Counted from the first letter of the stretch, positions 624 through 21,579 are shown. The stretch: DNA of 48,568 bases from an uncultured Gammaproteobacteria bacterium (GCA_964593215.1 CAZQIA010000001.1:1-48568); one strand, 5' to 3'. Notes: generated by a model from the sequence alone, not told the origin. Numbers and translations: made by a program.

Positions 624-1730
624 ATGGAAGCCGAGTTTTTAATAGAAAATTTAATTCCTTACACGGGGTCTCTTCTTCGTGTCTTAACGCCACACTCACA
701 AATACCGGTTCAGACGAGCGTATTAATAGAGGCAACACAAAAAGGTCTTTCTTTTTCAGCAACAGACCTGGACTTTGCAATCCAACACACAATCCCCGCA
801 AAAACAGAGAAGGAGGGAGGAGTGATGGTACCAGGAAAACAATTTTTGGAAGTTGTAGCGTCTTTAGGACAAGGGAAGGCGATTATTACCCAGGATAAAG
901 ACACCCTAAAACTGCAAACACAAAAAAACAAATTCTCCTTTCAATGTCTTCCAAAAGACGAATTTCCAAAACTGTACGAAGAAAAGGGAAGACAAATTTT
1001 AAAAAAAGAAAAAAAAGCATTTGAAGAGGTGTTTTCAAAGTTAATTTTTGCGGTTTCTCAAGACGAGTCAAGACCGCATCTAACAGGGATCTGTGTTAAA
1101 AGAAGAGAAAAAACCACAGAGTATATCGCAACAGACGGGTACAGGCTGTCTTTGGTTAAAATAGAGGACGAAGAAGGGGAAGAAGAATTGGGGGAGGGAA
1201 TTATTTTATCGCCAAGACTAGTTGCTGAAGGACTATCCCTGAAGGAGGGCGAAGAAATAAACCTTTTTGTAAACGAAGAAAACAATCAAGCAATACTTCA
1301 GACAACAGGAACCACGCTTATAGGAAGGCTTATAGAGGGCTCCTACCCAGATTATGAGAGGGTTTTGCCTAAAAATTTATCCATAGACATCGAGCTAGAC
1401 GCTTTAGAAATGTCTAAGAACCTAAAAACAATTCTGGTTTTTGCCCGAGAGAACGCAAACGTAGTGAATCTAAGATTTGAACAGAACACGCTTTATATGG
1501 ATGCTTCCTCTGGAGCATTAGGGCAAGCAGAAGTAACAATGGATACAAAACAGGCAGGGGACGATGTGTCTATTAGTTTTAACATAAAGTTTCTTTTGGA
1601 TTTGCTGCGGGTTATAGAGGATAAGGAGATAAAAATAAGGCTGAACAGCTCAACAGAGCCAGCGTTATTTGAGATCTCAGGGTTAAGTACGTTTCTACAC
1701 GTTATCATGCCCGTACGGGTACAGGACTAA
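624..1730 (+). CDS. dnaN: DNA polymerase III beta sliding clamp
   Basis: 368 aa, three-domain clamp length. It sits immediately after dnaA. Typical motifs are present: ..SRPHLTGICV.., ..ATDGYRLS.., ..GSYPDYERVLP.., ..ISFNIKFLLDLL.., ..FLHVIMPVR. Confidence 0.95.
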   Translation: MEAEFLIENLIPYTGSLLRVLTPHSQIPVQTSVLIEATQKGLSFSATDLDFAIQHTIPAKTEKEGGVMVPGKQFLEVVASLGQGKAIITQDKDTLKLQTQKNKFSFQCLPKDEFPKLYEEKGRQILKKEKKAFEEVFSKLIFAVSQDESRPHLTGICVKRREKTTEYIATDGYRLSLVKIEDEEGEEELGEGIILSPRLVAEGLSLKEGEEINLFVNEENNQAILQTTGTTLIGRLIEGSYPDYERVLPKNLSIDIELDALEMSKNLKTILVFARENANVVNLRFEQNTLYMDASSGALGQAEVTMDTKQAGDDVSISFNIKFLLDLLRVIEDKEIKIRLNSSTEPALFEISGLSTFLHVIMPVRVQD

Positions 1731-2215
1731 TAAGCAGCCCGTGATGGAGGGGAGGAGGGAAGCGCTGAGTGGATAATGTAAACAAAAGGGGTGGAGAGGC
1801 GCGTGTTACTGTAGGAAACGGTTTCTTGAAGAATAGTAATTTTTGTTTCCCCGTTTTGCCATACTGTTTTTGGATAAAGAGTTAACTTATCTTTTTCGTC
1901 ACCCTGCGTAAAATAATATTCTACTTTTGGAAAAACATCTATCTTTATCCCTTCTTTAGAGACATTTTGGCTAAACAGTATTTCTATTGGCTGATCGGGA
2001 TAATAGGCTGTTTTCTGGTCGCTTGGTGTAAAACCTAACACCGTAAACTCTTCTGGATTTTTGGTTGTTTTTGTGGGATTTATATTGGTAGAATTTTCTG
2101 TGTTACTCTGTTTTTCATTGGGTTTTAGGAAAAAAGACAAAAATAGAAAAAAAATTATAATTAATAAAACAACAATACCAATTACAATAATTTTGAGTCT
2201 ATAACTAAATTCCAT
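1727..2215 (-). CDS. Bitopic membrane protein with extracellular Ig-like (SbsA/Big_5-like) domain, last gene of the T4SS-like operon
   Basis: N-terminal TM helix (IIVIGIVVLLIIIFFLFLSFF) followed by a beta-rich segment. Its stop overlaps the dnaN stop convergently. Confidence 0.55.
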   Translation of the reverse strand: MEFSYRLKIIVIGIVVLLIIIFFLFLSFFLKPNEKQSNTENSTNINPTKTTKNPEEFTVLGFTPSDQKTAYYPDQPIEILFSQNVSKEGIKIDVFPKVEYYFTQGDEKDKLTLYPKTVWQNGETKITILQETVSYSNTRLSTPFVYIIHSALPSSPPSRAAY

Positions 2216-2217
2216 AG

Positions 2218-2835
2218 CTATTTACAAAAGTAATCGGGTGCATCTACCCATTGTGTTCCTGATGCTGTAACCTTAGCAAATTCTACATGTACGTGGTGCA
2301 TGTTGCAACCATTTCCGCATATTTTTGCTCCTACATCTCCAGAGGAGAGGTTTCCTCCACCACTTCCCGGATCTGTATGGTGAAATTGAATTCTGTATTT
2401 TTCTCCGGAAGAAGGTTCAGTCCCAGAATAAACTTGGATTGCTTGATTCCCAATGTTGTTTGTTTGTCCCAAAAAAGCCCATGTAATTATCTTGCCATCT
2501 ACGGAAGGGAGAATCACGTTTTGAAAATCGCTACCCCCTATGTCCATAGCATAATGTATTCCGGGGTAATTTGGATCCGTGCAAAGAGGTCTTAATTGAG
2601 CAGGATCAATATTTATATAGTCTTGTGTGCAGTGTCCGCATCCATTAACGTTAACTCGTTCACTGCCACAGGTAATAACCCCATTTGGTATGGGACACGC
2701 TGCGATTGCTCCCGCAGGGCTTCCCACGCGTGTTGTGACAGTGTTACTGCTGTTACTAAATTGTGCCAATGTTTTTATTGGCACAATAAATAAAATGCCA
2801 GTGACTAAAAATAACAATATAATTAACTTTTTCAT
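2218..2835 (-). CDS. Secreted M23/LytM-family metallopeptidase-like protein
   Basis: Signal peptide MKKLIILLFLVTGILFIVPIKTLA. HxxxD motif (HYAMD) and terminal HxH motif (HHVHVEF, compare PHLHFE of M23). The ATG at 2835 is preceded by a GGAAGGG SD-like sequence; the ORF track shows a GTG at 2844. Confidence 0.55.
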   Translation of the reverse strand: MKKLIILLFLVTGILFIVPIKTLAQFSNSSNTVTTRVGSPAGAIAACPIPNGVITCGSERVNVNGCGHCTQDYINIDPAQLRPLCTDPNYPGIHYAMDIGGSDFQNVILPSVDGKIITWAFLGQTNNIGNQAIQVYSGTEPSSGEKYRIQFHHTDPGSGGGNLSSGDVGAKICGNGCNMHHVHVEFAKVTASGTQWVDAPDYFCK

Positions 2836-2837
2836 AA

Positions 2838-3374
2838 TTAACACCCTTCCGGTAATGGATTAAATAAAGCGTGAGATTCAAGAATGGATGATTTTACCTC
2901 AGAACTAAGATAAAAGGACAGAGGGAGCTTGCAAACATCTTCCTTCGTAAACCCTTTAGATATTAAAAAGTCTACCGCGTCTTTTTTAGCCTGAGAAATG
3001 TTGACACTTCTTATTTCTGCAATAAAAGCGTCCATAGACGGGAGGTAAGCTATTTGTACATTGCTATTGGTAAAAACCTCACCTGGCTTACTGTTTAGGT
3101 TTTGAACAATTGTATTTTTGGAATTTTGTCCATCATCAGAAAGAGCCCTTCTGTTTTTGGAAAGATCAATAAGTTTATTACTTTTTTCAGGGTTGTAAGA
3201 AAACGGAGGGGGGGAGACATTAGTTTCTTTTTGATTTGGAATAAGCGTAGGAATTGCCACTTTAGGATTATTGGGAATAGGTGAATTTTGTCCTAAGTAC
3301 TCAAAAATAATAAACACAACTATTAGAAATAGGGTAGTAAAGACGGCAACTAAAATAAAAAGTAGTGTTTTCAT
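2838..3374 (-). CDS. Bitopic membrane protein in the PrgL/VirB8 position (function unknown)
   Basis: Start MKTLLFILVAVFTTLFLIVVFIIF. The ATG at 3374 overlaps the TGA of the upstream gene (ATGA coupling). It has one N-terminal TM and an extracytoplasmic domain. The VirB8-like call rests on gene order only. Confidence 0.5.
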   Translation of the reverse strand: MKTLLFILVAVFTTLFLIVVFIIFEYLGQNSPIPNNPKVAIPTLIPNQKETNVSPPPFSYNPEKSNKLIDLSKNRRALSDDGQNSKNTIVQNLNSKPGEVFTNSNVQIAYLPSMDAFIAEIRSVNISQAKKDAVDFLISKGFTKEDVCKLPLSFYLSSEVKSSILESHALFNPLPEGC

Positions 3375-5986
3375 CTTTGGGTTACTCCCTGCCAGGCCTG
3401 CCAATATCCGGGAGGACCAGCGTAAGGAACACCGTTGGCTCTAAGAGTTGCGGCAAGTCCCATAGCATTTGTGGTTTGCTCACTCCATCCAACATTCCCT
3501 ACATCATTTGGGCCACTCGTGCTTTTTCCTTTAGGATTCATCTGGTAGAGTCCGTATGCGCCGTTGCCGCTCGTAGAAGATCCACTAAAAGCGTTTGGGT
3601 TCCAACTAGATTCCTTTGGAATAACTACCTGAAACCATGCATCAGCGTTATTTGGATCCTGTGATTTAAGAATTTCACCTACTGCATTTTGAGCTTGGAT
3701 ACGGCTTGCATCAGTTGCAAAGTCACAATTGGGATCTCCAAAGTTTGCCGAAGGGCTTGTAAGCGTATAATAACCATTGCAGGTATCTGAGTTTGGTGTT
3801 GTTACATTTTGTGTTGAATTTGCCATTGCCGTTGCGCTGTTGCTTATTATTATATTATCACTTACCGGTTCTACTATTAGAGTAAGCGGGCTTGTGTTTG
3901 CAGGGTCTGAGAGTTTCCAGCTCACCGTGTTAGCGCCGGTGTCAAAGCTGGAATTACCCGAGGCGCTTATAAATTTTGCACCGCTAGAGATTTTATCTGA
4001 AATTGTTATGTCTGAAATTTGAATGGTTGTACCGGAAGAAGGAGTGTAGGAGTAAGTTATTGTATAAGTGATTCTTTCAGGGCTAGATGGGTTATAAGTT
4101 ATCTGTGTTTTATCAACTTGTTTATTTATGGTAAAGCCAGGTATTGGATTTGTGTTTGGTGGAGTGGTTCCCCCATTGCTTCCTCCGCCTGTGTCTCCAC
4201 CTACTCCTCCTGAAAAATTACTGGATCCCCCACCAGTTGCTGTTATTATGATAATAAGCATTGCAACAAAAAACCCAACTACTAATAAGGCTATTCCTAT
4301 TCCCAAAAGGACTGGTGGATTGCCGATAATTGCCGCTGCAGCTTTTTGCTCTAATTGTTGAAGAGCTTGCCCCGCCAGTTTTCCCTCCTTTTTTTTTACG
4401 GCTCTCGTACCATAACCTGAACCTGATCCTCGCGTTCCTCCTCCAATCCATACGCTTCTTCCTCCCAAGATGCGTTTGGAGGTAAAGGATTTTAAAGAAA
4501 AAAAACGGGTGGGTATGTTTTGACTGTAACCTGCAAAAGTTTGTGAGGGTGAACCTCCTGCATTTTTTGACCCAGAAGTACCTTTTCCTTGAGTAAGCTT
4601 TTGATTGTTTTTTTTCTTTTCTCCCCATTCTCGCATTTTCCACACTTTTGAATCTCTAAGCTTGTTGTAAAGAGCTTTGGGGTTAAATCCTCTCAATTTT
4701 GCCAATGCAATAATCTGGTCATTTTTTTCCTTTTGATATTCAAACGCATTTTTTCTTCTTCTGGTTACTTTCTGCACCCCCTTACCGGTAACCGTTGTCG
4801 CAATGCCAAGAGGAGTAATGTTTTTTACAATCGAAAAAAGCCGGCTCTTTTTGTGTTTAGCTGTGTCAGGAGCTATCAATGAAGTGTCCTCGTTTTTGTA
4901 TTGTTTTCCACGTATTTTATTTATCCCGAGCTTTCCGATCGAGGCTGCGATTCCAACAGGGGTAAGGTTCTTGGCAATAGACATCCCCCAGTGTTTCGAG
5001 TGTTTTTTTTGCGCAGACTGCTCTTTTTCAATTTCCTCAACTGTTTTCTTGCCAAAAACGCGCTGTTTTGCGCGTGAGCCTAAGAACCCAACAACAAATC
5101 CTGCTGGAGTACTATAAAGAAGTGCTCGCCCTGCTTTTTCAGTCGCTGTATTTTTATGAGGTTTTAAGGAGGAGGATGCAGGTTCTTCAGCTTGTTTTTC
5201 TTTTGCATTTTTTCCTCTGGTACGTCTTAGCCCCTCGGTTGCGGCGCTATATGCAATTCCAGCTGGCGTTGTATTTTTAAGAATACTTGTGGCAATGTTC
5301 CCTTTTTTCCTTTCAGCTTCAGAAGGCTCACCCTCCAGAGGTTCTTGAGAAGAGCCACCTTCAGATTTTTGTAAATTTCCTCCCGAGAGCTTTTGGGATG
5401 CGGCTCCTGCAAGACTTGCTGCAATTCCTACTGGTGTTGAGTTCTTGACAACAGTCTTTAAAATACTTCCCGACTTTTTTTGAGAGTCACTTACTATCCT
5501 TTCGGCCTCATCTACCGCAGAGTTTGCTTCATTTGATGAAATGGCGTGTTCAGCATCAGTATTGGATGGTTTACCCGATGCCGGCTGTGCAGCTGGAGTA
5601 GTTTCTTGCTCCTCCACTATTCTTATAGCTTCCTGAACGGCTGCACGTGCGTCTTCAGAGGAAAGTGTTTTTGTTTGAGCACCTGAAATACCAGAGCGGC
5701 TTGCTGTCGATTGTCTTGAAAGTTCTTCGACCCGTGTGTTTCCCCGTCCTTCCTCTATTTGAAATTCACCAGCAGAGTTACTGTCAAATTCTATTTTTGT
5801 GCCTTTTCCCAGTGTTCTTTTTGTGTTAACAGTTGAGGTTGGCGTTTTCTGAGCTGCAGTTATAGGTGAGGAGGCTTGGCTAGGAATGGTTCTTTGTGAA
5901 GAAGGAGGACTCGAACTACCATCAGGATTTCTAATGCTTGTGGCTGGATTATTTGTTTTTTTGTCAGGAGCATTAGTTGTTGCCAT
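3371..5986 (-). CDS. 871-aa bitopic T4SS-associated protein: repeat-rich cytoplasmic N-terminus, TM, Ig-like region, C-terminal lytic transglycosylase (VirB1/PrgK-like)
   Basis: C-terminus reads ..VIPKESSWNPNAF..GNGAYGLYQMN.., the catalytic E-S and GLxQ motif of SLT/GEWL-type transglycosylases. The TM is PVLLGIGIALLVVGFFVAMLIIIITA. It lies directly downstream of VirB4. Confidence 0.7.
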   Translation of the reverse strand: MATTNAPDKKTNNPATSIRNPDGSSSPPSSQRTIPSQASSPITAAQKTPTSTVNTKRTLGKGTKIEFDSNSAGEFQIEEGRGNTRVEELSRQSTASRSGISGAQTKTLSSEDARAAVQEAIRIVEEQETTPAAQPASGKPSNTDAEHAISSNEANSAVDEAERIVSDSQKKSGSILKTVVKNSTPVGIAASLAGAASQKLSGGNLQKSEGGSSQEPLEGEPSEAERKKGNIATSILKNTTPAGIAYSAATEGLRRTRGKNAKEKQAEEPASSSLKPHKNTATEKAGRALLYSTPAGFVVGFLGSRAKQRVFGKKTVEEIEKEQSAQKKHSKHWGMSIAKNLTPVGIAASIGKLGINKIRGKQYKNEDTSLIAPDTAKHKKSRLFSIVKNITPLGIATTVTGKGVQKVTRRRKNAFEYQKEKNDQIIALAKLRGFNPKALYNKLRDSKVWKMREWGEKKKNNQKLTQGKGTSGSKNAGGSPSQTFAGYSQNIPTRFFSLKSFTSKRILGGRSVWIGGGTRGSGSGYGTRAVKKKEGKLAGQALQQLEQKAAAAIIGNPPVLLGIGIALLVVGFFVAMLIIIITATGGGSSNFSGGVGGDTGGGSNGGTTPPNTNPIPGFTINKQVDKTQITYNPSSPERITYTITYSYTPSSGTTIQISDITISDKISSGAKFISASGNSSFDTGANTVSWKLSDPANTSPLTLIVEPVSDNIIISNSATAMANSTQNVTTPNSDTCNGYYTLTSPSANFGDPNCDFATDASRIQAQNAVGEILKSQDPNNADAWFQVVIPKESSWNPNAFSGSSTSGNGAYGLYQMNPKGKSTSGPNDVGNVGWSEQTTNAMGLAATLRANGVPYAGPPGYWQAWQGVTQR
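4757..5467 (-). repeat. Five intragenic protein repeats with core N-x-(S/T)-T-P-x-G-(I/F)-(A/V)
   Basis: The five copies are VVKNSTPVGIAASLAG, ILKNTTPAGIAYSAAT, LLYSTPAGFVVGFLGS, IAKNLTPVGIAASIGK and IVKNITPLGIATTVTG. They fall at about aa 174-410 of the 871-aa protein, and each is followed by a basic stretch. Confidence 0.8.
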
Positions 5987-6004: not shown

Positions 6005-8200
6005 TCATCCATTATTTGCTTGCTGGGTTGTAGTTGAGGATGGCATAGGTGGAGGTGTGGGTATATTTGGGGTTACAGCAGGCTGAGTAGGGGCTTGAGC
6101 TGGTTGCGGTGCAGTAGGAGAATTCCATGAAGCTGGTGCAGGGGCTTGAGTAGGTGGCGTTTGAGCAGGTTGTGATTGCAAGGCATCAGCTGGAGCTGGT
6201 GTAGCTAATGGTTGAGCTGTAGACACTGGTTGGGGTGCTGAGACGGGCTGAGGCGTCTCAACAGAAGGGATACTTGACGTTTGAGACGGAGAAGGGGCGC
6301 TTTGTTGTTCTATGAATTTTTCAGCAGCCCCATTTTTAGACTGTTCGTCTTCTATGATGTCTTGTGGTTTTGAAGTGATTATTTGATATTCAAAATTAGA
6401 CGCCATGAACTGTGCGGTTATATGATTCTGTCCTGCAAATAAAAGCCCTTCTCCTACCTGTGCGGTGAGCAAAAACTGCTTTTCTCCTTCTGATAGATTT
6501 AATGTTGCCGCTAAAGTTTCCACTTCAGAAGAGTTTTGTTTTAAAAGAATCTGCATAGAAGAGTTTGATAAAATTGCCTTTCCATAATCAGAAGACAAAA
6601 AGTCCTCTATGTCCTGTGTTAATGTGGTTACGCCTAGATAGTATTTTCTTGCACGCTTTGCAATTCCTTGTAAAAATGACGCCGAGTCCGGATTTTTCAT
6701 TAAGTACCATGCCTCATCCACTATTAAAATTCTTTTCTTAAGTCGTGTTCTTACTCTGTTCCAGATAAAGTCTAAAATTACCTGCATCGCAACAGGGCGC
6801 AGAGCATCTTCTAACTGCTTTATGGAAAAAACAGTGAGTTGATTTTTAACATCATAGTTTGTCTGTTCGTTTAAAAGCCCTGCAAATCCTCCCTTTACAT
6901 ATTTTTCAAGCCTAAACGCAAGGTCTTTTGCATCCTGCTCCTCCATATTAAGAAGTGTTTTATAAAGATCTTCTAAGATGGGTGGTTCTTTGTCATAAGT
7001 AGAAGGGTCAGGGGTAATTCCTTTTTGCTTGTAGCAAAGCACTAAGCTTCTGTCTAGAATTGCTTCTTGAGTTGGCGTAAAACTTCCAAGCATTGTTTTA
7101 AGAAGTGAGTGCATGGAAAGAATTTTTATACCAAGCTGAGCTTCTGTTTTATCATCAGATAAGAGCGCAAATGGGTTAATTTTTACCTCAGAGTCTTTTG
7201 AAAAAGATATATACTCTCCATCAAGCGCATGGCACAAAGTTTTATACTCATCCTCTGGGTCTATAATAAGAATTTCAGCATCAAACATCATTTGACGCAA
7301 CACTTCAAGCTTAACCAGGAAAGATTTTCCAGCACCAGATTTTCCAAAAACTACTGAATTTGCGTTCTCAAAAGAGAACCTGTCTATAATTACAAGTGAA
7401 TTGTTAAGAGTATTTACTCCGTAAAAAATTCCGTTAGGGTGAGAAATTTCATAAGAGGTAAAAGGAAATGTTGAAGCAACAGACGTGGTGTCCATATTGC
7501 GTGTTACAAAAAGCTTATCTGTTCCTAGGGGCAGTGTGGTTTTGAATCCGTCTTCCATCTGAAGAGTAGCGGGTTTAATAACTAAAAGGTTAGACGCAAG
7601 AAGTGAAGTCAATTCATTTGTCTTTTTATTCAGTTCATCTAGTGTTTTTGCAGCAAGCGTGATATACAGCCCAAACTGGAAAAACCGCTCCAAACCGCGC
7701 GCAAGTTCTTCCCGCAGGGCAACAGCATCTTCCAGCGCCGCTCTTACTTTTGGGTCTGGTTCTGTACCGTTTTTCATATCAGACTCTATGGTTGCCTCCA
7801 TTTCAGCAATTTTGCGTCTCAGGTTAGACAGAATATCCTTGCTTTCAACGGGATAAATAAACATGGAAACATTCATGGTTTCCTTATAATCTATGAGCAT
7901 AGAAAGCCATGAGGGAGAAACTTCTCTGGGATAATCAACCACTATAAAAGATCTGTAGAACGCGTCTCCAACTCTAATATGCTTAAAGTCAACCTCCACA
8001 GAAGAAGGAGCTATAAGATCAACCAGGGAGATGGACCCCTTTTTAAGAGTTTCAATCCCTTTTTGAATAGCAGGGTCAACGGCGTGATGGGTTGGTTGTT
8101 GGGCTGTGGTTCCGGAAGGAACAACTATAGTTCCTGTTGGGGCTGAGGTAACAGGAGGAGTCTGTGCTGTTTGATTTTTTTTTGATCCTAAACCTAGCAT
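6005..8200 (-). CDS. virB4: VirB4/TrbE/PrgJ-family type IV secretion ATPase with Pro/Gln/Thr/Ala-rich C-terminal tail
   Basis: Walker A FGKSGAGKSF and Walker B ILIVDEAWYLM. The N-terminal domain pattern ..IRVGDAFYRSFIVVDYPREVSPSWLSML.. is typical of VirB4. It sits next to a PrgI-like gene. Confidence 0.85.
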   Translation of the reverse strand: MLGLGSKKNQTAQTPPVTSAPTGTIVVPSGTTAQQPTHHAVDPAIQKGIETLKKGSISLVDLIAPSSVEVDFKHIRVGDAFYRSFIVVDYPREVSPSWLSMLIDYKETMNVSMFIYPVESKDILSNLRRKIAEMEATIESDMKNGTEPDPKVRAALEDAVALREELARGLERFFQFGLYITLAAKTLDELNKKTNELTSLLASNLLVIKPATLQMEDGFKTTLPLGTDKLFVTRNMDTTSVASTFPFTSYEISHPNGIFYGVNTLNNSLVIIDRFSFENANSVVFGKSGAGKSFLVKLEVLRQMMFDAEILIIDPEDEYKTLCHALDGEYISFSKDSEVKINPFALLSDDKTEAQLGIKILSMHSLLKTMLGSFTPTQEAILDRSLVLCYKQKGITPDPSTYDKEPPILEDLYKTLLNMEEQDAKDLAFRLEKYVKGGFAGLLNEQTNYDVKNQLTVFSIKQLEDALRPVAMQVILDFIWNRVRTRLKKRILIVDEAWYLMKNPDSASFLQGIAKRARKYYLGVTTLTQDIEDFLSSDYGKAILSNSSMQILLKQNSSEVETLAATLNLSEGEKQFLLTAQVGEGLLFAGQNHITAQFMASNFEYQIITSKPQDIIEDEQSKNGAAEKFIEQQSAPSPSQTSSIPSVETPQPVSAPQPVSTAQPLATPAPADALQSQPAQTPPTQAPAPASWNSPTAPQPAQAPTQPAVTPNIPTPPPMPSSTTTQQANNG

Positions 8201-13618: not shown

Positions 13619-13621
13619 ATG

Positions 13622-15401: not shown

Positions 15402-16721
15402 TTACTCGGTAAACAAATATCCGCGGCCTTTTACTGTGGTGATATGTGTAGGGTTGTTAGGATCTTCCTCAATTTTTTTTCTTACCCGATAGATAATTTG
15501 ATCAAGCGCCTGATCAGTTACGCCTTCTCTGGTTTGTGAATCTGTCCAGACGGAGGAAATAATTTCATCCTTCTCGCATACGCGTCCTTTATTTTGAATT
15601 AAAAATCTCAAGAGCTTAAATTCAGAAGAAGAAAGTTTGTTGGTTAATTTGTCTTTTCCCTGGGAAATCTCATTTGTTTGTGGATCATAGATAATTTTTT
15701 CTCCGGAAGGTTTAGGAAAGTCAGGCAGCCTTTTTTCCAGTAGTGGAATCTGAATTTTTCCGTTTTTTGTGAGCCCAACTTTTTCTAAATATTCTTCAGA
15801 AGAGTTTTCTTTAAATAAGTCTTGCTGTTCCTGGGGTAGAAGTGCGTCCCAAATTTCAAAAAGGGACGCTTTTATGGCACTTTTGGAAAGAAGAAATGAA
15901 GATAAATCTTTTGGGAACACTTCTTCTGAAAGTATGTTTTCAAAAGACGCCCTTAACAGTTTTCCGTGTCCTCCGGTTATGTCTAAAATTTCATGTTTTT
16001 TTTCTTCAGAGACCTTTTTTCCAGAAACCTTTTCTAAATAAGAGATTCTAAAATCATTTGCATAAGAATCAGAAAGAGCAAGAAATACAGTATTTCCTGC
16101 AATAAATTCATAATATTCAGAAATAACTGCAGGTTCCAGAATGTCCTCAAGCGGTCTATTTAATGCAAATACACAGGAAAATCTGTATTTTGCTCTGTTT
16201 CTTAAGATTTTTAAATCCAGAAAAAATTGAGAAATTACGTGCGGGACATACGTGTCAAATCTATCAAACAAAAAAATTACCGTCAACTCTTTCTCCACAC
16301 ATAAAAAGTCTATGGTTTTTTTAAGTGCTTGAGAAAGGATGAGCTCATCCTGGAATGAGAGTGCTTCTTTTAAAAACGTATTTACAGTTTCAGCTTCTTT
16401 ATCCATTTTGCGTTCTGAGAGAGAATAAGAAATAGAGATAATGATGAATTTTAATATGTCTAGGAGACTTCTTTCCTGCACCTCTGAAAGATCCATGTAC
16501 ACAAAGTGAAACCATTTGTAGTTCTCCCCAAGGTGTTTCAGGCGCACAGCGTTATTGTAGGCAAGAAGTCGTAGAAAGTTACTTTTTCCCACTCCGGGAA
16601 GCGCTAGGACTTGAACAGAGGACCCTTTTTTTACGTAGGAAATGAGCTCAGACACTTCTTTTTCTCGGGTAGCCTCAGGATATAAAGATTCAAAATGTGT
16701 ATGGTCTGAAGCAGGATTCAT
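15402..16721 (-). CDS. P-loop NTPase (AAA/STAND-like) fused to C-terminal OmpR/PhoB-type winged-helix DNA-binding domain
   Basis: Walker A LALPGVGKSNFL and Walker B-like VIFLFDRFD. The C-terminus LSSSEFKLLRFLIQNKGRVCEKDEIISSVW..TDQALDQIIYRVRKKIE..ITTVKGRGYLF is a Trans_reg_C signature. There is no receiver domain. Confidence 0.7.
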   Translation of the reverse strand: MNPASDHTHFESLYPEATREKEVSELISYVKKGSSVQVLALPGVGKSNFLRLLAYNNAVRLKHLGENYKWFHFVYMDLSEVQERSLLDILKFIIISISYSLSERKMDKEAETVNTFLKEALSFQDELILSQALKKTIDFLCVEKELTVIFLFDRFDTYVPHVISQFFLDLKILRNRAKYRFSCVFALNRPLEDILEPAVISEYYEFIAGNTVFLALSDSYANDFRISYLEKVSGKKVSEEKKHEILDITGGHGKLLRASFENILSEEVFPKDLSSFLLSKSAIKASLFEIWDALLPQEQQDLFKENSSEEYLEKVGLTKNGKIQIPLLEKRLPDFPKPSGEKIIYDPQTNEISQGKDKLTNKLSSSEFKLLRFLIQNKGRVCEKDEIISSVWTDSQTREGVTDQALDQIIYRVRKKIEEDPNNPTHITTVKGRGYLFTE

Positions 16722-16773: not shown

Positions 16774-19700
16774 TTGAGGCTAAAATGTGCGTATATGAAT
16801 GAGATATCACGCACAGGTAGAGAATTGACAGGAACGAGTGTATCTTTTAGACTAAATGAAGCTCCCTTACTAAACAGGGGAAGTTTTTCTATGCCTGAAC
16901 CACAGCCGCCTAATGAAGGATCACAAGAAAACCTAAGAGTTCCCAGAAGGGGAGGTCAGGGTGGAAGAAGAGAGGGTAGAGCTCCGGAAACTCTTGCAGG
17001 CTTGCTAGGTCCTCAAGCAGGAAGAGAAGCAGCAAGAGCGTTATTTGAGGAGTCTCAGGCGAATAATATCCCGCTTACCCCAAGTCAGAGGCAGTTTATG
17101 CGTTCTGTAGGGTTCGTGCCAGAAGGCGTAGAGTGGGAAGATTATGGGGATGAAAGAAGTGAACAAATAACACGAAACGGAGAGAGTTTTCAAACTGACA
17201 GAAGGGAAGCAGAGGGACAGGAGAGACACGGGTTGGTGCATCAAGTAGGGTTTGGAGAAGTTACCGATACACAATTTAAACGAACACTAGATGTTTTTAA
17301 CCACGATATTGCAGAAAGACTTATAGGAGATAATGCTGAGCACACACTTTCAAGACTAGGAAGCACTATTAAGGAATTGACAGACAGGATAGGAGCGGCG
17401 GATTTTCCCCAGGAACAGTACGACTCTGCGCTAGAAGCTTTGGACAATCTTAAACAGCAAGAGTTGGCTCTTATGAAAAGAGACGAAGACCCCAGAAGTA
17501 AAAGAAGAAATGAACTTTATAGACAGTCAGCGATATTTGAGCAGGAATTTGCTGAAGAAATAGAACTAGACAGGATTGGGGAAGATATTCCGGATTCTCC
17601 AAGAAAAGAGCAGTTTAGACTAAGACGCCAAGAACTTGTTAAAAACATAACTACCGCAATAGAAAATGCTCCTTCGGTAGAAGCTGCAAGGTTTGATCAA
17701 GTAGTTATGGAGATGGCATTAAAGTTTAGAGAGACTAGAGAGCTTCTCATCAATGAGATTCTCTTTAAGCCCTTTGAAGATAAAACCGAACAAGGACATT
17801 ACGAGTTAAACCTATATGCATCAGGAAATTTAGACGAACTTCTTGCAATGTTGTCTAGGAGGGGAAAAGAGGAAAAGTACAAAAAAGACAGAGAGATATA
17901 TCAGTGGTATAAAGCAATGCGTACTACTTCTAGAAATTTCTGGGAAATGAATAGAGGATTATGGACCGGAAACTTAGAGAACTTTTCAAGAATTGCAGAA
18001 GAAATGAATCATGATCAGTTTGAAACTATGCAGAAAATTCCCGGAGTAGGAGAGGTGGCGCGTATTTATGATGAGAAATTCTGGTCAATTATAGCAAGAG
18101 ACAAGCGTATAACTTCAGAGAATATACAGGAAGCAAAGCAAATGGCAAGGGATGCAGCGCTAAGACTTAACGATGCCGGACTTTTAGTAAGTAGCTATTT
18201 TGATGATAGGGAGGGAACAATAGACGAAAGAAGAAAACTGGAAACGTGGGAACTAGACCGTGCCCTTAACGTGGGGTATGTGTTTTTCAACATCACATTT
18301 AGAGGCGCAGAGCTTATATCATTAAGTCAGCTTCAAGAAGGAGGATTTAAATTTGCATCATGGCCACAAGAAAATGTAACTAGGTTTTTGGATCCCCTGA
18401 GATTGACAGGAGAACGCTTTACGATCGGTAATGAAAGAGGAGGACAAGATTATCTAAAAAGAGTTAAGAAAGTCCATCAAGAACTTATGGATAAAGATGG
18501 AAGACACTTAGGGAAAAATAGACTGTCTCAGATAGGGGGAGCAAAAGTTGAAGACCTGGAGTATATGTCTATGATGGGAATTTCTGGTGTATTTTCTTCC
18601 TGGAGAATGACAACTGCTGCCATGTCAGCAATACGACTTGACATGGATGGAGAAGCTACTGATCTTAAAAAATACATGGTTGATAAAAAATTTACATACG
18701 GTCATGGTGATAAACCAAAAGAAGTTCTTGGTTTACAAAACTATATAGGAGAAATAAGGGGTGATTCTAGTTTATCTCTTGAGGATAAACAAAATGCAAT
18801 AGTGGCAGCCTTAAAGCCGCTTATTGGAGAAAACGGTGCTCTCAATATAGGGTTTGGCATGCTTTTAAGACTAGGTCAGGGAAACGATGGTCTAGAAGGA
18901 TTTTTGTCCGGGCCTGAGGGTTATAAAGCGCGTCAAGAACTATGGAATCGGGTGGCAGAAAAAAATCCACTCATGATGATAAATCTCTTAACAAACCTAG
19001 AAGAAAAGGGTCATGGAGAGATTAAAGACCACGAATCTCATCATTCACTTAAGAATTTATTGAAGCATAATGGATGGATAACTGATGCAGAAGCAGGCGT
19101 TTCAGATCCATCCAAAGAAGGGTTTTATCTTAATAATCCAAGATGGCAAGCCTTGAAGAATAAACTTGAATTACGTCAAGAACATACTCTTAAAAAACAA
19201 AATAATCCCAATTTCGAATTAACCGCAGATATCAGTTTGACTGCGGACGAGCAGCACATGGTAGATAGCATTAAGAATGCTGGAAAGGCAATATCAGAAG
19301 ATCTTGCAGATGTTGTATTTCCTTACATGTTGTTCTTAAATGATATGCCATATGAAGACTTTACGTGGGCAAAGACTGGTGCGCAGTATTTTAAAAGAAG
19401 AATGGGGGATATAGGAAGCTACAATAAGGCAGGGTCCGCAGCTATTGGTATGCTTGACAACTTAGGAGGACTGAAACCAGAAGATGTTATTGAGAAGCAC
19501 TTGAAAGAAATAGAAAGAGGAATAGAAGGCCCTAATGGAGATACATTTGCGTTTAAGGCTGTCATGCCTTTTATTCTCGCATATGTAGAAATGGCAGAAA
19601 CCAGTAGCGGGATTGACCAGATTGGATTAATCCAAGAGGTAAAAGAGTTCTCAAATAAGCCAACGTCTATATTGCAAAAATATGCAGGTACACACGCGCC

Positions 19701-19911
19701 TTCTCTTAGCAAAAAAGAACTGTATACATTTGCACACGCTCTACACAGCGCCGGGGTGGTTGGCCACCATCACGTAGAGGAATTAAGAAAATATAAACAC
19801 TTTACATTTATTGACATTTTAATATCAGTTTTAATGAATGCAGCTCCGGTAATTGTAGGAGAAATGGTTTTTGGAGCAATTAAACCGGCGGGAAGTCTTA
19901 AGGCTGCCTAG
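16774..19911 (+). CDS. Hypothetical large protein (about 1000 aa) with R/G-rich N-terminus and C-terminal hydrophobic anchor
   Basis: Uninterrupted ORF. The track start is a TTG. Alternative ATG starts lie at 16795 and 16891, and the latter is preceded by AGGGGAAG. The C-terminal hydrophobic segment is ILISVLMNAAPVIVGEMVFGAI. No family recognised. Confidence 0.6.
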   Translation: MRLKCAYMNEISRTGRELTGTSVSFRLNEAPLLNRGSFSMPEPQPPNEGSQENLRVPRRGGQGGRREGRAPETLAGLLGPQAGREAARALFEESQANNIPLTPSQRQFMRSVGFVPEGVEWEDYGDERSEQITRNGESFQTDRREAEGQERHGLVHQVGFGEVTDTQFKRTLDVFNHDIAERLIGDNAEHTLSRLGSTIKELTDRIGAADFPQEQYDSALEALDNLKQQELALMKRDEDPRSKRRNELYRQSAIFEQEFAEEIELDRIGEDIPDSPRKEQFRLRRQELVKNITTAIENAPSVEAARFDQVVMEMALKFRETRELLINEILFKPFEDKTEQGHYELNLYASGNLDELLAMLSRRGKEEKYKKDREIYQWYKAMRTTSRNFWEMNRGLWTGNLENFSRIAEEMNHDQFETMQKIPGVGEVARIYDEKFWSIIARDKRITSENIQEAKQMARDAALRLNDAGLLVSSYFDDREGTIDERRKLETWELDRALNVGYVFFNITFRGAELISLSQLQEGGFKFASWPQENVTRFLDPLRLTGERFTIGNERGGQDYLKRVKKVHQELMDKDGRHLGKNRLSQIGGAKVEDLEYMSMMGISGVFSSWRMTTAAMSAIRLDMDGEATDLKKYMVDKKFTYGHGDKPKEVLGLQNYIGEIRGDSSLSLEDKQNAIVAALKPLIGENGALNIGFGMLLRLGQGNDGLEGFLSGPEGYKARQELWNRVAEKNPLMMINLLTNLEEKGHGEIKDHESHHSLKNLLKHNGWITDAEAGVSDPSKEGFYLNNPRWQALKNKLELRQEHTLKKQNNPNFELTADISLTADEQHMVDSIKNAGKAISEDLADVVFPYMLFLNDMPYEDFTWAKTGAQYFKRRMGDIGSYNKAGSAAIGMLDNLGGLKPEDVIEKHLKEIERGIEGPNGDTFAFKAVMPFILAYVEMAETSSGIDQIGLIQEVKEFSNKPTSILQKYAGTHAPSLSKKELYTFAHALHSAGVVGHHHVEELRKYKHFTFIDILISVLMNAAPVIVGEMVFGAIKPAGSLKAA

Positions 19912-19920
19912 GTAAAATTT

Positions 19921-21579
19921 TTAAATCTTTTTGCCAAGAGTTCTCCAAAGGCCTGGAGCTTCAGTTATGTTGTGACCTGGTGTATAAGCAGTGGTTGCCG
20001 TACTTACACCGCCCCTAATTGTTCCAATACCAACGCCTGTAGCCTTTTTAATATCTACGAGTCCAAAATCCATAGCGCCAACAGCTTTTCTGGTTCTGTC
20101 AAGAATGGTGGGAAGAGAGATGATAAATCCGAATCCAATAAAACCTGCGATTGCCGGATTTCCTCCAATTGCACCCCCAACTAGGGGCGGAGAAAATAAT
20201 TGCTGCTGACTTCCTGAAACGGCATCCATCATGGTTTTCCCTAAAAAAAGTACGGCAAAAGTTGCAGGGAATACGGATAGGTGCCCCATGAGATGTCTGA
20301 CCCATGAGGTAAATCCAAGTTTACTTCCTGGAAAAACTCCAGCGGCAATCCACAACGGCCCTACCATGGAGTCCACCAATACGTAAGCAAAAGACTTTAC
20401 CAATGTAAACCAAACCCTGAAGAGCGTGTAGAAAATTGCGACCAAAACTACGAGAAACGCAAGTACGCCAAAAATTAATCCCACCGTTTGCTTAAAGAAT
20501 TCAGTTGCAAAATCACATGACGGTTTATCAAACAAACCAAAGGAAATTTTATTTGTAACCCAGCCAAAGCCATTACACGCAATATCTAGTACTCCAAAAG
20601 GAGTAAAAAGAATTTGAAACCAGTGCCCTATGGTTGAGTCAATAAAATCTGAAGAGAGTGTTGAGAGTACGCTACTTATACCCTGAGAGACTGAATACGT
20701 AAGATTTAAAATTCCAGAACCTCCCACTGAATAGTTAACTTTGTTAGGTATAACTACTGGATCTAATACTGTTACGTTAAACGAACCATTAAATACTTTA
20801 TTGAATACCCCAAAAACACTATTGTCTATATTTACATGAGTAGAGGTTAGACTTGAGAAAGTGTATATAATAAAATAGGTGACTACATACATAATATCTA
20901 TTAAAAATCCTGCAATAGCATACGAGAAGGTGACTAAGATAAGCGCGATAACAATTTTAGGAATTTGGTTCTGTATGGTCATGACTGTTCTTGCGTCAAT
21001 TTTAACCCTAAACATAATGGCAAGACCTACGACAGTAAACGCTAGTACAAAGAAAAGGTAAGCGAGGTCTCTAAATTTGACCCAAACAGGGATGAGCGGA
21101 CCAAGCCTGCTGTAGCCAGACCCTCCTCCTTTTTGATCTGCTGCGTATGCATGTTTAGTTAATCCAAAATTATTAATAGAATAAGTAACATAATCTGTTC
21201 CAGAAATTGGAATGGCTGAAGTTCCTGCAATCATTCCTCCAATAAATTTTCCAACGCCTCCATTTGATGTTGCATATGCAATTTTTCCGGTCTGAGGGTT
21301 AAACGTGAGACATTGTTCCTTAGGGTTTAGAGGATCGTGTCCTGATAATGCACATACCACACTCGAGAGAGTTTCTATAAAAACACTCTGAGAAAGCGTG
21401 TGGAGATTTTTTGGAACATTCTGTTCTACGTTTCCGTAGATCATCTCAGAATTCTGTTGCTGAGCTGCTGTCTTTGGGGAAACATTGGGAGCCTGTGCAT
21501 AGGACGGTTCCAGCGTTATTATAATAAGGTAGAGAAGTAAAAACCCTGCAATAAATTTTAATCTTAACCGCAATGACAT
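19921..21579 (-). CDS. Polytopic membrane protein, VirB6/TrbL-like candidate
   Basis: Signal peptide ends ..PSYAQA, followed by an extracytoplasmic segment. There are at least six long hydrophobic helices and a Gly-rich tail. The call rests on topology and T4SS context, not on a recognised motif. Confidence 0.4.
   Translation of the reverse strand: MSLRLRLKFIAGFLLLYLIIITLEPSYAQAPNVSPKTAAQQQNSEMIYGNVEQNVPKNLHTLSQSVFIETLSSVVCALSGHDPLNPKEQCLTFNPQTGKIAYATSNGGVGKFIGGMIAGTSAIPISGTDYVTYSINNFGLTKHAYAADQKGGGSGYSRLGPLIPVWVKFRDLAYLFFVLAFTVVGLAIMFRVKIDARTVMTIQNQIPKIVIALILVTFSYAIAGFLIDIMYVVTYFIIYTFSSLTSTHVNIDNSVFGVFNKVFNGSFNVTVLDPVVIPNKVNYSVGGSGILNLTYSVSQGISSVLSTLSSDFIDSTIGHWFQILFTPFGVLDIACNGFGWVTNKISFGLFDKPSCDFATEFFKQTVGLIFGVLAFLVVLVAIFYTLFRVWFTLVKSFAYVLVDSMVGPLWIAAGVFPGSKLGFTSWVRHLMGHLSVFPATFAVLFLGKTMMDAVSGSQQQLFSPPLVGGAIGGNPAIAGFIGFGFIISLPTILDRTRKAVGAMDFGLVDIKKATGVGIGTIRGGVSTATTAYTPGHNITEAPGLWRTLGKKI

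What the first reader, a model, noticed from the sequence alone, without database searches (positions are those of the whole stretch)
1727..21579. Origin-proximal, relaxase-less, monoderm-style type IV secretion/pilus locus
Seen in the sequence: minus-strand operons encode the following.
- A PrgI/VirB3-like protein and a 202-aa unknown.
- A VirB4 ATPase (GKSGAGKS, IVDEAW).
- An 871-aa bitopic protein ending in an SLT lytic-transglycosylase motif.
- A bitopic 178-aa protein and an M23-like peptidase (HxxxD, HxH).
- Four VirB2-like pilin-module proteins.
- A polytopic VirB6-like candidate.

The order PrgI, VirB4, cell-wall hydrolase, bitopic protein mirrors prgI-prgJ-prgK-prgL of enterococcal pCF10 (established knowledge). 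I see no relaxase, no VirB7/9/10/11, no replication or partition genes, and no integrase at this locus. It begins 0 bp from dnaN, so it looks like core chromosome rather than an ICE.

Inference: the apparatus is used for something other than conjugation, such as host-cell contact, effector delivery or DNA uptake in an episymbiotic reduced-genome bacterium. About half of its roughly 17 genes have no recognisable family.
Basis: partly seen in the sequence, partly recalled or inferred. Interest (0 to 1): 0.7.

Follow-up and report, generated by a model that had tools for sequence, protein, structure and literature searches.

The report
Patescibacterial type IV secretion/pilus locus
This is the chromosomal, origin-adjacent type IV secretion and pilus gene cluster of a Candidatus Levybacteria (Patescibacteria/CPR) genome; it is real and well conserved, but this kind of system and its odd features were already published in 2023-2025.

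Summary
Window 1727-21579 encodes these parts:
- a CD1110-type VirB4 ATPase
- a PrgI/VirB3-like protein
- a 202-aa split VirB4 N-domain (TrsD-like)
- an 871-aa bitopic protein with an SLT domain
- four VirB2-like pilin-module proteins
- a secreted protein with an M23 fold
- a divergent VirB6/TrbL-like polytopic protein
- an ATPase plus winged-helix regulator
- several orphan proteins

The cluster abuts dnaN-dnaA. No relaxase or outer-membrane core component was found anywhere in the 48.6-kb window.

The block is syntenic in 45 species-level relatives. In 33 of 33 loci with enough flank, dnaN lies 1.8-6.5 kb from virB4. It is therefore inherited core chromosome, not an ICE.

Wang et al. 2023 (Cell) and Quinonero-Coronel et al. 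2025 (Microb Genom) describe this relaxase-less, monoderm-derived, pilin-bearing, dnaA/dnaN-proximal T4SS. Their dataset includes Levybacteria.

Small additions made here:
- a likely VirB6 family in a class where VirB6 was reported to be scarce
- an M23 fold for the 208-aa protein
- a conserved block of VirB6-like gene, 1045-aa orphan, regulator and pilin array
- a T4CP-like gene 37 kb away

What the apparatus transports remains unknown.

The parts
2..475 (+). 3' part of dnaA (cut by the window edge); context marker for the replication origin region
   Evidence: Open frame runs off the left end; Bac_DnaA_C 4.3e-23. Aligns with a full 447-aa dnaA in L001.
624..1730 (+). dnaN (DNA polymerase III beta clamp); context marker, convergent with the T4SS operon and overlapping it by 4 nt
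   Evidence: All three DNA_pol3_beta domains, 1e-21 to 1e-23. Found next to the T4SS in 33 of 33 related loci with enough flank.
1727..2215 (-). 162-aa bitopic protein with a weak Ig-like (Big_5) ectodomain; last gene of the core operon
   Evidence: One TM segment at residues 9-27. Big_5 at 0.0021, below the cutoff. Homologues occupy the same position in about 14 related loci.
2218..2844 (-). 208-aa secreted, Cys-rich protein with an M23 (LytM/lysostaphin-like) fold; putative peptidoglycan endopeptidase
   Evidence: No Pfam, NCBIfam or PDB-profile hit. AF2 pLDDT 87.4. Foldseek top 7 are lysostaphin, LytU, LysTt72 and phi29 gp13, probability 0.96-1.0. H97xxxD101, H155/H156 and H184xH186 are present. 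H97 is not conserved in the family. L002 has a Peptidase_M23+YkuD protein at this position.
2838..3404 (-). 178/188-aa bitopic protein: TM segment, Pro-rich linker, about 90-aa conserved domain with a Cys pair. Function unknown; VirB8/PrgL analogy not supported.
   Evidence: TM at residues 15-33. No family or PDB match for the sequence or for a 10-member profile. The ATG start at 3374 gives 178 aa, as called in L001.
3371..5986 (-). 871-aa bitopic cell-wall hydrolase (VirB1/PrgK-like role): cytoplasmic N-terminal part with 5 KNxTPxGIA repeats, one TM segment, DUF11-like Ig region, C-terminal SLT lytic transglycosylase
   Evidence: PF01464 23.2 bits against a cutoff of 21.3, at residues 777-820. 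TM at 563-581. ES and GAYGLYQM motif conserved in 11 loci. Repeats.
6005..8200 (-). VirB4 ATPase, MPF_FATA/CD1110 type, lacking the first ~177 profile positions
   Evidence: NCBIfam conju_CD1110 424.6 bits (cutoff 325), covering profile positions 178-732 of 752. Pfam P-loop_TraG 1.7e-36. PDB 4ag5 at 1e-46. 7262 homologues, the closest all from Levybacteria.
8207..8815 (-). 202-aa TrsD-like protein, a separately encoded VirB4 N-terminal domain
   Evidence: Matches positions 2-181 of conju_CD1110 (2e-4), 100-279 of VirB4_plasma (3.3e-11) and TrsD NF041427 (1.5e-4), all below their cutoffs. Precomputed PF26593 TraC-like in L001 and L002. Adjacent to virB4 in 46 of 47 loci.
8852..9955 (-). PrgI/VirB3-like membrane protein (2 TM segments) fused through a Pro/Gln-rich linker to a CarboxypepD_reg-like beta-sandwich domain
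   Evidence: PF12666 4.5e-11, 43.6 bits against a cutoff of 27. PF13620 2.6e-6, below the cutoff. TM segments at 39-57 and 68-86. Present in 45 of 47 loci.
10107..10496 (+). 129-aa soluble orphan protein, divergently transcribed from prgI
   Evidence: No family. Homologues at the same position in about 20 loci.
10504..12423 (+). 639-aa orphan protein without a signal peptide, ending in one C-terminal TM segment (tail-anchored)
   Evidence: No Pfam or NCBIfam family. TM at 601-619. Proteins of 636-655 aa at the same position in L001, L002 and L048.
12420..12773 (-). VirB2-like pilin (117 aa)
   Evidence: PF18895 T4SS_pilin 47.4 bits against a cutoff of 26.6. TrbC/VirB2 at 0.002. Two TM segments.
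12824..13237 (-). VirB2-like pilin (137 aa) with a signal peptide
   Evidence: PF18895 27.5 bits against a cutoff of 26.6.
13289..13618 (-). VirB2-like pilin (109 aa)
   Evidence: PF18895 28.8 bits against a cutoff of 26.6.
13622..15298 (-). 558-aa protein: signal peptide, large Cys-rich ectodomain, C-terminal pilin module. First gene of the pilin array; candidate pilus-associated adhesin (inference).
   Evidence: PF18895 29.9 bits at residues 479-546. A 426-604-aa protein with the same architecture heads the array in L001, L002, L048 and L049.
15402..16721 (-). 439-aa putative regulator: N-terminal P-loop ATPase-like region plus C-terminal OmpR/PhoB-type winged helix
   Evidence: Trans_reg_C 2.3e-21. 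Conserved upstream of the pilin array in 22 of 29 loci with enough flank, and in L048 and L049.
16774..19911 (+). 1045-aa orphan protein without a signal peptide, with one C-terminal TM segment; conserved between the regulator and the VirB6-like gene
   Evidence: No Pfam, NCBIfam or PDB match, even for 36 family members or their profile. Only 177 cluster representatives among 1.84 billion proteins. Syntenic in L001, L002, L048 and L049.
19921..21579 (-). 552-aa polytopic VirB6/TrbL-like membrane protein (divergent)
   Evidence: At least 5 hydrophobic segments. 2 of 32 family members exceed the PF04610 TrbL cutoff (32 against 25.9 bits), in a region that maps to window residues 311-488 at 32% identity. 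Foldseek top 8 hits are all R388 TrwI/VirB6, but weak (E 0.08-0.18, model pLDDT 63). Synteny.
45086..47518 (-). 810-aa T4CP-like (VirD4/TraD-type) ATPase, 37 kb from virB4; a possible remote component whose membership is uncertain
   Evidence: TraG-D_C 23.8 bits against a cutoff of 22; TrwB_AAD_bind 22.8 against 20.5. SXT_TraD 1.2e-13 and conju_CD1115 1.7e-7, both below their cutoffs. Walker A and B motifs are visible.

Best explanation
The locus is the chromosomally fixed, vertically inherited type IV secretion and pilus apparatus typical of Patescibacteria, here in a Candidatus Levybacteria (Microgenomatia) genome. It descends from the monoderm MPF_FATA conjugation machinery but is not a conjugative element.

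Shown by the analysis:
- A CD1110-type VirB4 ATPase is encoded as two genes, the TrsD-like N-domain and the ATPase body.
- It sits with a PrgI/VirB3-like membrane anchor, a divergent VirB6-like polytopic protein, an SLT-domain protein, an M23-fold protein, four VirB2-like pilin-module proteins and a dedicated ATPase plus wHTH regulator.
- All of these lie in conserved order beside dnaN-dnaA.

Inferred mechanism:
- VirB4/TrsD docks on the PrgI and VirB6 membrane platform.
- It extracts membrane-embedded VirB2-like pilins and polymerises a pilus or tube.
- The SLT and M23-fold proteins open a passage through peptidoglycan.
- The large pilin-fusion protein decorates the structure as an adhesin.
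- The structure contacts or penetrates the host cell and serves as a conduit for exchange with the host (protein export or uptake of host macromolecules), not for self-transfer of DNA.

Identity of the system: about 0.95. Not self-transmissible conjugation: about 0.85. Conduit to the host as its function: about 0.5-0.6.
For: - Family assignments are. VirB4 (profile positions 178-732) and the 202-aa protein (positions 2-181) together cover the CD1110 model.
- Monoderm affinity.
- Fold evidence for M23. Transitive and fold evidence for VirB6.
- Synteny with dnaN-dnaA across 45 species-representative genomes, 33 of 33 with enough flank. The block of VirB6-like gene, 1045-aa gene, regulator and pilins is conserved.
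- No relaxase, integrase, replication or partition family among ORFs of at least 100 aa in the locus, and no relaxase anywhere in the window.
- Literature: the homologous Southlakia epibionticum cluster (SEML1_0006-0019), including its pilin array, is essential for epibiotic growth and lacks recognisable coupling and relaxase proteins (PMC10633639).
- A phylum-wide survey describes a Patescibacteria VirB4 clade nested in MPF_FATA, with TrsD, PrgI, pilin arrays, only 109 relaxases in 3,035 genomes, and dnaA/dnaN proximity in Microgenomatia (PMC12102498). Levybacteria are in that dataset.
- Tubular structures that may be T4SS pili reach towards the host in a cultivated member of the phylum (bioRxiv 10.64898/2026.06.21.733656).
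Against: - No functional data exist for Levybacteria, and no host is known.
- The substrate and the direction of transport are unknown in every Patescibacterium.
- No VirB8/PrgL-like component was found.
- The VirB6 assignment rests on weak, indirect evidence.
- A T4CP-like ATPase is present in the window, so DNA or nucleoprotein transport cannot be excluded.
- Only 48.6 kb of the genome could be searched for relaxases.
- Several conserved genes (129, 639 and 1045 aa) have no assignable role.
Confidence: 0.8

Rival explanations
1. The locus is (part of) an integrative conjugative or mobilisable element that transfers DNA between cells. It would use the T4CP-like ATPase at 45 kb and the serine recombinase at 30 kb.
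For: - The VirB4 belongs to a family named for a conjugative transposon.
- A T4CP-like gene and a large serine recombinase abutting tmRNA lie in the same window.
Against: - The order and position next to dnaN-dnaA are conserved in 33 of 33 species-level relatives, with VirB4 identity falling from 99% to about 50%. That is vertical inheritance.
- No relaxase family hit was found in any ORF of at least 100 aa in the window.
- Housekeeping genes (nrdR, RNR, comFC-like, smpB, tmRNA) separate the locus from the recombinase, and that element extends away from the T4SS.
- No att repeat was found.
- GC content is unremarkable.
- No plasmid homologue exceeds 37% identity.
Confidence: 0.03
2. It is a DNA-import machine, analogous to the archaeal Ced system or the Helicobacter ComB T4SS, that feeds nucleotides or genes to a cell unable to make them.
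For: - VirB4 gives weak sub-threshold matches to CedB (6e-12) and CedD.
- A comFC-like gene lies 7 kb beyond the locus.
- In class ABY1 the T4SS co-localises with competence genes.
- Patescibacteria lack nucleotide synthesis.
Against: - The CD1110 match (7e-127) far exceeds the Ced matches.
- In Southlakia, natural transformation depends on comEC and type IV pili.
- In Southlakia the comEC deletion is viable, whereas the T4SS is essential. Its essential role is therefore not DNA uptake through ComEC (PMC12857230).
Confidence: 0.1
3. It only builds an adhesive pilus for attachment to the host and translocates nothing.
For: - Four pilin-module genes, including a large ectodomain fusion.
- There is no adjacent coupling protein.
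- Pilin arrays are divergent, as expected for surface-exposed, host-matching parts.
Against: - Patescibacteria already use type IV pili for adhesion.
- A VirB6-like channel subunit is retained and conserved.
Confidence: 0.12

Closest known systems
Patescibacteria-clade T4SS (Southlakia epibionticum SEML1_0006-0019, Wang et al. 2023 Cell; survey by Quinonero-Coronel et al. 2025 Microb Genom)
   Same: - VirB4 of MPF_FATA affinity, with an adjacent TrsD-like gene and a PrgI/VirB3 gene.
- A tandem array of divergent VirB2-like pilins.
- Peptidase and lysozyme-type genes downstream of virB4.
- No relaxase and no outer-membrane core.
- Chromosomal position near dnaA/dnaN.
- T4CP homologue encoded far away.
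- Levybacteria genomes are in the published dataset.
   Different: These are differences of detail only.
- In this Levybacteria lineage PrgI is always adjacent to virB4 (45 of 47 loci). The survey found only 22.6% association for Microgenomatia.
- A VirB6-like family is present, although the survey found VirB6 scarce in this class.
- The locus also carries a conserved ATPase plus wHTH regulator and tail-anchored orphan proteins of 639 and 1045 aa, which the text read here does not discuss.
Enterococcal pCF10 prgI-prgJ-prgK-prgL and other MPF_FATA conjugation systems (pGO1, CTn2, pIP501)
   Same: - Gene order: VirB3-like, (TrsD as in pGO1), VirB4, then a bitopic cell-wall hydrolase.
- Monoderm architecture without VirB7/9/10.
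- The VirB4 matches the CD1110 model above its cutoff.
   Different: - No relaxase, oriT, adjacent T4CP or PrgB-type adhesin.
- The hydrolase has an SLT domain but no CHAP domain.
- No VirB8/PrgL-like protein was detected.
- It has VirB2-like pilins, which Gram-positive systems lack.
- It is fixed in the chromosome beside the origin region rather than carried on a mobile element.
Archaeal Ced and Helicobacter ComB DNA-import T4SS-like systems
   Same: VirB4-family ATPase used without a relaxase, in a non-conjugative role.
   Different: - Matches to the CedB and CedD models are far below their cutoffs.
- The component set (PrgI, TrsD, VirB2 pilins, SLT) differs.
- Published genetics in Southlakia separates competence from the essential role of the T4SS.

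Membership tests
Patescibacteria-clade T4SS (PMC12102498; PMC10633639) | VirB4 ATPase with MPF_FATA affinity | tested here: met
   conju_CD1110 424.6 bits against a cutoff of 325. The next best models are the Mycoplasma ICE VirB4 (272 bits) and TraC-F (206 bits). The nearest plasmid and PDB relatives are from monoderms.
Patescibacteria-clade T4SS (PMC12102498; PMC10633639) | VirB4 falls inside the monophyletic Patescibacteria clade in a reference phylogeny | not tested
   No reference VirB4 set for the eight MPF classes was available. As a proxy, the 120 best-scoring homologues listed (68-99% identity) that carry a source name are named Levybacteria or Patescibacteria.
Patescibacteria-clade T4SS (PMC12102498; PMC10633639) | TrsD-like (VirB4 N-domain) gene next to virB4 | tested here: met
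   The 202-aa protein matches CD1110 positions 2-181, VirB4_plasma at 3.3e-11 and TrsD at 1.5e-4, all sub-threshold. It is adjacent to virB4 in 46 of 47 loci.
Patescibacteria-clade T4SS (PMC12102498; PMC10633639) | PrgI/VirB3 homologue | tested here: met
   PF12666 43.6 bits against a cutoff of 27.
Patescibacteria-clade T4SS (PMC12102498; PMC10633639) | Array of VirB2-like pilin genes near virB4 | tested here: met
   Four consecutive genes exceed the PF18895 cutoff.
Patescibacteria-clade T4SS (PMC12102498; PMC10633639) | No relaxase and no VirB7/9/10 outer-membrane core near virB4 | tested here: met
   No such Pfam or NCBIfam hit in any ORF of at least 100 aa in the 48.6-kb window. The rest of the genome cannot be tested.
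Patescibacteria-clade T4SS (PMC12102498; PMC10633639) | Chromosomal location near dnaA/dnaN (Microgenomatia, Paceibacteria) | tested here: met
   The cluster overlaps dnaN by 4 nt. dnaN is present in 33 of 33 related loci with enough flank.
Patescibacteria-clade T4SS (PMC12102498; PMC10633639) | Required for epibiotic growth | not testable with these tools
   Known only from Tn-seq in Southlakia epibionticum.
MPF_FATA conjugative T4SS (pCF10 type) | Relaxase, oriT and coupling protein linked to the mating-pair genes, on a mobile element | tested here: not met
   No relaxase was found. The T4CP-like gene is 37 kb away. The locus is syntenic core chromosome.
MPF_FATA conjugative T4SS (pCF10 type) | VirB8-like (PrgL/TraM/TcpC) bitopic component | tested here: inconclusive
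   The 188-aa protein and a 10-member profile match nothing in Pfam or PDB. Its folded domain of about 90 aa is small for an NTF2-like fold.
MPF_FATA conjugative T4SS (pCF10 type) | No VirB2-type pilin | tested here: not met
   Four PF18895 pilin modules are present.
Peptidase M23 (for the 208-aa protein) | Match to PF01551 or to M23 sequences of solved structures | tested here: not met
   No hit in Pfam or NCBIfam. A 12-member profile finds no M23 protein in PDB. hhalign against a lysostaphin sequence recalled from memory gave nothing.
Peptidase M23 (for the 208-aa protein) | M23 fold with HxxxD, catalytic His and HxH | tested here: met
   The AF2 model (pLDDT 87) has lysostaphin, LytU, LysTt72 and phi29 gp13 as its top 7 matches, probability 0.96-1.0, E 5e-3 to 7e-2. 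The motifs are present in this protein. The first His is not conserved across the family, so some members may be non-catalytic.
VirB6/TrbL (for the 552-aa protein) | Match to PF04610 above its cutoff | tested here: inconclusive
   The window protein gives no hit. Two of 32 homologues score 32 bits against a cutoff of 25.9, over a region that aligns to window residues 311-488.
VirB6/TrbL (for the 552-aa protein) | Polytopic membrane protein with a VirB6-like fold, encoded with other T4SS genes | tested here: inconclusive
   At least 5 hydrophobic segments. The top 8 Foldseek matches are all R388 TrwI/VirB6, but at E 0.08-0.18 and TM 0.26-0.30, from a model with pLDDT 63. Synteny with the pilin array is conserved.
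Integrative conjugative element | Integrase and att sites bounding the T4SS genes; variable presence among relatives | tested here: not met
   No integrase lies in or beside the locus. The tmRNA-linked recombinase is 8 kb beyond it, past housekeeping genes. The locus is present in all relatives examined.

The most novel reading that the evidence does not exclude
The Levybacteria version could be a complete pilus-forming conduit with parts specific to this lineage. Those parts would be a highly divergent VirB6, a Cys-rich adhesin fused to a pilin module, two tail-anchored giant orphan proteins (639 and 1045 aa) and a dedicated ATPase plus wHTH regulator. In this reading it works in the import direction and draws host cytoplasmic macromolecules such as RNA into the symbiont. 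The orphan proteins would be new structural or gating subunits without counterparts in any described T4SS.
Probability: 0.15. Interest if true: 0.75.

Novelty: already known. Interest (0 to 1): 0.25.

Why it matters
Patescibacteria make up a large share of bacterial diversity and depend on host cells. Their T4SS is the first T4SS reported to be essential for the survival of the bacterium that carries it, and what it transports is still unknown.

This window adds nothing new in kind. It does give a clean, complete Levybacteria example, with three leads for work on Microgenomatia:
- candidates for the components reported to be scarce in this class (a VirB6-like protein) or only loosely linked to virB4 (an M23-fold hydrolase)
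- a conserved putative regulator
- two conserved orphan families that are reasonable targets for structure prediction

Tried and rejected
1. ICE or conjugative element: rejected on synteny, absence of a relaxase and the gene context.
2. The apparent stand-alone DnaA C-terminal ORF (155-475) is an artefact. The frame is open to the window edge, so it is simply a truncated dnaA.
3. Sequence-level tests of M23 membership for the 208-aa protein all failed: Pfam, NCBIfam, a profile against PDB, and hhalign against the syntenic M23+YkuD protein and against lysostaphin. Only the fold search succeeded.
4. A profile of the VirB6-like family against PDB sequences found nothing.
5. A VirB8/PrgL test of the 188-aa protein by profile found nothing.
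6. The 1045-aa orphan was searched against 1.84 billion representatives. Pfam was then run on 36 members and their profile was run against PDB. No assignable domain emerged.
7. DnaA boxes are not enriched in the window: 19 found against 13 expected. Origin proximity therefore rests on the dnaA-dnaN adjacency and a monotonic cumulative GC skew.
8. Sigma-70-like promoters and terminators are not enriched over shuffled sequence. The best promoter-like sites do fall in the intergenic gaps upstream of the pilin array, prgI, the regulator and the VirB6-like gene.
9. No repeat of the tmRNA 3' end was found that would mark an att site.
10. The exact window VirB4 sequence is not on record. A 99%-identical copy lies on a 588-kb JGI contig.

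Full report
**What is in the sequence.** The window is a low-GC (about 38%) stretch. Its left edge cuts dnaA: the frame is open to base 2 and aligns with a full-length dnaA in a 99%-related contig. dnaN follows at 624-1730.

A run of minus-strand genes converges on dnaN and overlaps it by 4 nt:
- 162 aa, bitopic, with a weak Ig-like match
- 208 aa, secreted and Cys-rich
- 178/188 aa, bitopic
- 871 aa, bitopic
- 731 aa, VirB4
- 202 aa
- 367 aa, PrgI-like

Two plus-strand orphan genes (129 and 639 aa) come next. After them lies a minus-strand array of four proteins with a pilin module (558, 109, 137 and 117 aa). The remaining genes are a 439-aa regulator, a plus-strand 1045-aa orphan and a minus-strand 552-aa polytopic protein.

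**Checking the assignments.**
- VirB4: Pfam P-loop_TraG 1.7e-36 and AAA_10 1.9e-17. NCBIfam conju_CD1110 scores 424.6 bits, above its 325-bit cutoff.
- PrgI: PF12666 scores 43.6 bits against a cutoff of 27.
- SLT: PF01464 scores 23.2 bits against a cutoff of 21.3, at residues 777-820 of the 871-aa protein. The catalytic Glu and the GAYGLYQM motif are conserved in 11 related loci.
- Pilins: all four modules exceed the PF18895 cutoff.

The 202-aa 'unknown' is not unknown. It matches positions 2-181 of the CD1110 VirB4 model, while the 731-aa protein covers positions 178-732. It also matches the Mycoplasma ICE VirB4 model (3.3e-11) and TrsD (1.5e-4). It is therefore a separately encoded VirB4 N-terminal domain, the TrsD-like protein of the literature.

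The 439-aa protein carries an OmpR/PhoB-type winged helix (2.3e-21).

**The weaker claims.** The 208-aa 'M23-like' protein fails every sequence test: Pfam, NCBIfam, a 12-member profile against PDB, and hhalign against the syntenic M23+YkuD protein and against lysostaphin. An AlphaFold model built on 25 homologues is confident (pLDDT 87.4). Its seven best PDB matches are all M23 enzymes: lysostaphin, LytU, LysTt72 and phi29 gp13, at probability 0.96-1.0. HxxxD, a central His and HxH are present in this protein. The His of HxxxD is not conserved in the family.

The 552-aa protein has at least five hydrophobic segments and no direct family hit. Two of 32 homologues pass the TrbL/VirB6 cutoff (32 against 25.9 bits), in the region that aligns to window residues 311-488. 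A moderate model (pLDDT 63) has R388 TrwI/VirB6 chains as its eight best PDB matches, but weakly (E 0.08-0.18). I accept 'VirB6-like' as probable.

The suggested parallel between the bitopic 178/188-aa protein and PrgL has no support.

**Mobile element or core chromosome.** The closest VirB4 homologues, at 68-99% identity, come from Candidatus Levybacteria and Patescibacteria MAGs wherever a source names them. A scan of species-representative genomes returned 45 loci.

tblastn of the window proteins shows one recurring order: regulator, pilin array, PrgI, TrsD, VirB4, a variable cell-wall module, then dnaN-dnaA. dnaN lies 1.8-6.5 kb beyond virB4 in 33 of 33 loci with at least 8.5 kb of flank. 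TrsD is adjacent to virB4 in 46 of 47 loci and PrgI is present in 45 of 47. In relatives with only about 50% VirB4 identity, dnaA-dnaN follows virB4 directly. The block of VirB6-like gene, roughly 1000-aa orphan, regulator and pilins is also conserved.

No relaxase, integrase, replication or partition family appears in the locus, and no relaxase appears anywhere in the window. A large serine recombinase overlaps the 3' end of a tmRNA gene at about 29.9 kb. Housekeeping genes separate it from the T4SS, and the element extends away from the cluster. An ICE is rejected.

**Monoderm affinity.** The best VirB4 model is that of C. difficile CTn2. The nearest plasmid-borne homologues reach at most 37% identity and all sit in Firmicutes or Actinobacteria. 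The nearest solved structure is the Thermoanaerobacter VirB4 (1e-46), against 2e-4 for R388 TrwK.

**Comparison with what is known.** This system has been described.
- Wang et al. 2023 found the Southlakia epibionticum T4SS cluster (SEML1_0006-0019), including its pilin array, essential for epibiotic growth. They noted its Gram-positive-like composition and the lack of coupling and relaxase proteins.
- Quinonero-Coronel et al. 2025 surveyed 3,035 genomes. They report a monophyletic Patescibacteria VirB4 clade nested in MPF_FATA.
- The same survey found TrsD to be the commonest companion of VirB4, and reported PrgI/VirB3 homologues.
- It found VirB2-like arrays to be especially abundant in Microgenomatia.
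- It counted only 109 relaxases, and found T4CP homologues mostly far from virB4.
- It reported dnaA/dnaN proximity in Microgenomatia and Paceibacteria.
- The survey's genome table lists Levybacteria with VirB4 present.
- A 2025 review restates these points and speculates about a pilus conduit for uptake from the host.
- A 2026 preprint shows tubular structures that may be T4SS pili and reports uptake of host RNA.

**What is mildly new here.**
- A probable VirB6 family in a class where VirB6 was reported to be scarce.
- An M23 fold for a hydrolase that no profile recognises.
- Consistent PrgI adjacency to virB4 in Levybacteria, against 22.6% for Microgenomatia in the survey.
- A conserved ATPase plus wHTH regulator.
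- A large pilin-fusion protein heading every array.
- Two conserved tail-anchored orphan proteins. The 1045-aa family has only 177 representatives among 1.84 billion proteins and no detectable domain.
- A T4CP-like ATPase lies 37 kb away.

**Mechanism and verdict.** The parts list and its conserved chromosomal position are shown by the analysis. The rest is inferred:
- VirB4/TrsD on a PrgI and VirB6 platform polymerises VirB2-like pilins through a breach in the cell wall made by the SLT and M23-fold proteins.
- The resulting structure connects to a host cell for exchange rather than for conjugation.

Cargo and direction of transport are unknown. The finding is real and correctly read, but already known, so interest is low to moderate.

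Noticed in passing
window 29552-34600: A tmRNA gene (29552-29957, plus strand; Rfam 116.5 bits) has its 3' end overlapped by a 519-aa large serine recombinase (29911-31470, minus strand). Unannotatable ORFs and lower GC follow. This looks like a small integrated element at ssrA. No att repeat was found.
   Followed up: partly
window 45086-47518 (-): An 810-aa T4CP-like (VirD4/TraD-type) ATPase with one N-terminal TM segment and Walker A and B motifs. It lies 37 kb from virB4, between tRNA-Ile and two tRNA-Ser genes. It may or may not work with the T4SS.
   Followed up: partly
window 25615-25683 (+): An AdoCbl-II riboswitch (39.9 bits against a gathering score of 36.5) lies between a class II (B12-dependent) ribonucleotide reductase and a cob(I)alamin adenosyltransferase gene.
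   Followed up: no
window 44675-44749 (+): A tRNA-Ile with anticodon TAT. To my recollection (not checked here), most bacteria instead read AUA with a lysidine-modified CAU tRNA.
   Followed up: no
window ~4750-5446 (-), residues 181-410 of the 871-aa protein: Five copies of a roughly 30-aa motif (KNxTPxGIAxS followed by a basic tail) lie in the cytoplasmic N-terminal half of the SLT-domain protein. Their role is unknown; they could be a repeated docking motif.
   Followed up: partly
window ~2716-2748 (-); L002 16377-17498: The 208-aa family and a syntenic Peptidase_M23+YkuD protein in a relative share only a signal peptide followed by the motif SNxVxTxxGxP (hhalign probability 89%). This suggests a common sorting or processing signal on interchangeable cell-wall enzymes.
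   Followed up: partly
window 13622-15298 (-): The first gene of the pilin array is always a 426-604-aa protein: signal peptide, Cys-rich ectodomain and a C-terminal VirB2-like module. It is a possible pilus adhesin and is conserved in L001, L002, L048 and L049.
   Followed up: partly
window 10504-12423 (+) and 16774-19911 (+): Two conserved orphan proteins (639 and 1045 aa) lack signal peptides and end in a single TM helix (tail-anchored). The 1045-aa family is very restricted (177 cluster representatives) and has no detectable domain.
   Followed up: yes
window 1727-9955 (-) relative to dnaA-dnaN: The core operon is transcribed towards dnaN-dnaA in all Levybacteria loci, and towards dnaA in the more distant relatives L038-L040. 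It would be head-on to replication if oriC lies by dnaA. Cumulative GC skew rises across the whole window. DnaA boxes are not enriched within the window.
   Followed up: partly
loci L005, L007-L009, L012, L014 and others: Many GTDB species-representative records that carry this Levybacteria-type locus are titled 'uncultured Gammaproteobacteria bacterium' or 'Pseudomonadales bacterium'. The gene content suggests these titles are placeholders or mislabels.
   Followed up: no
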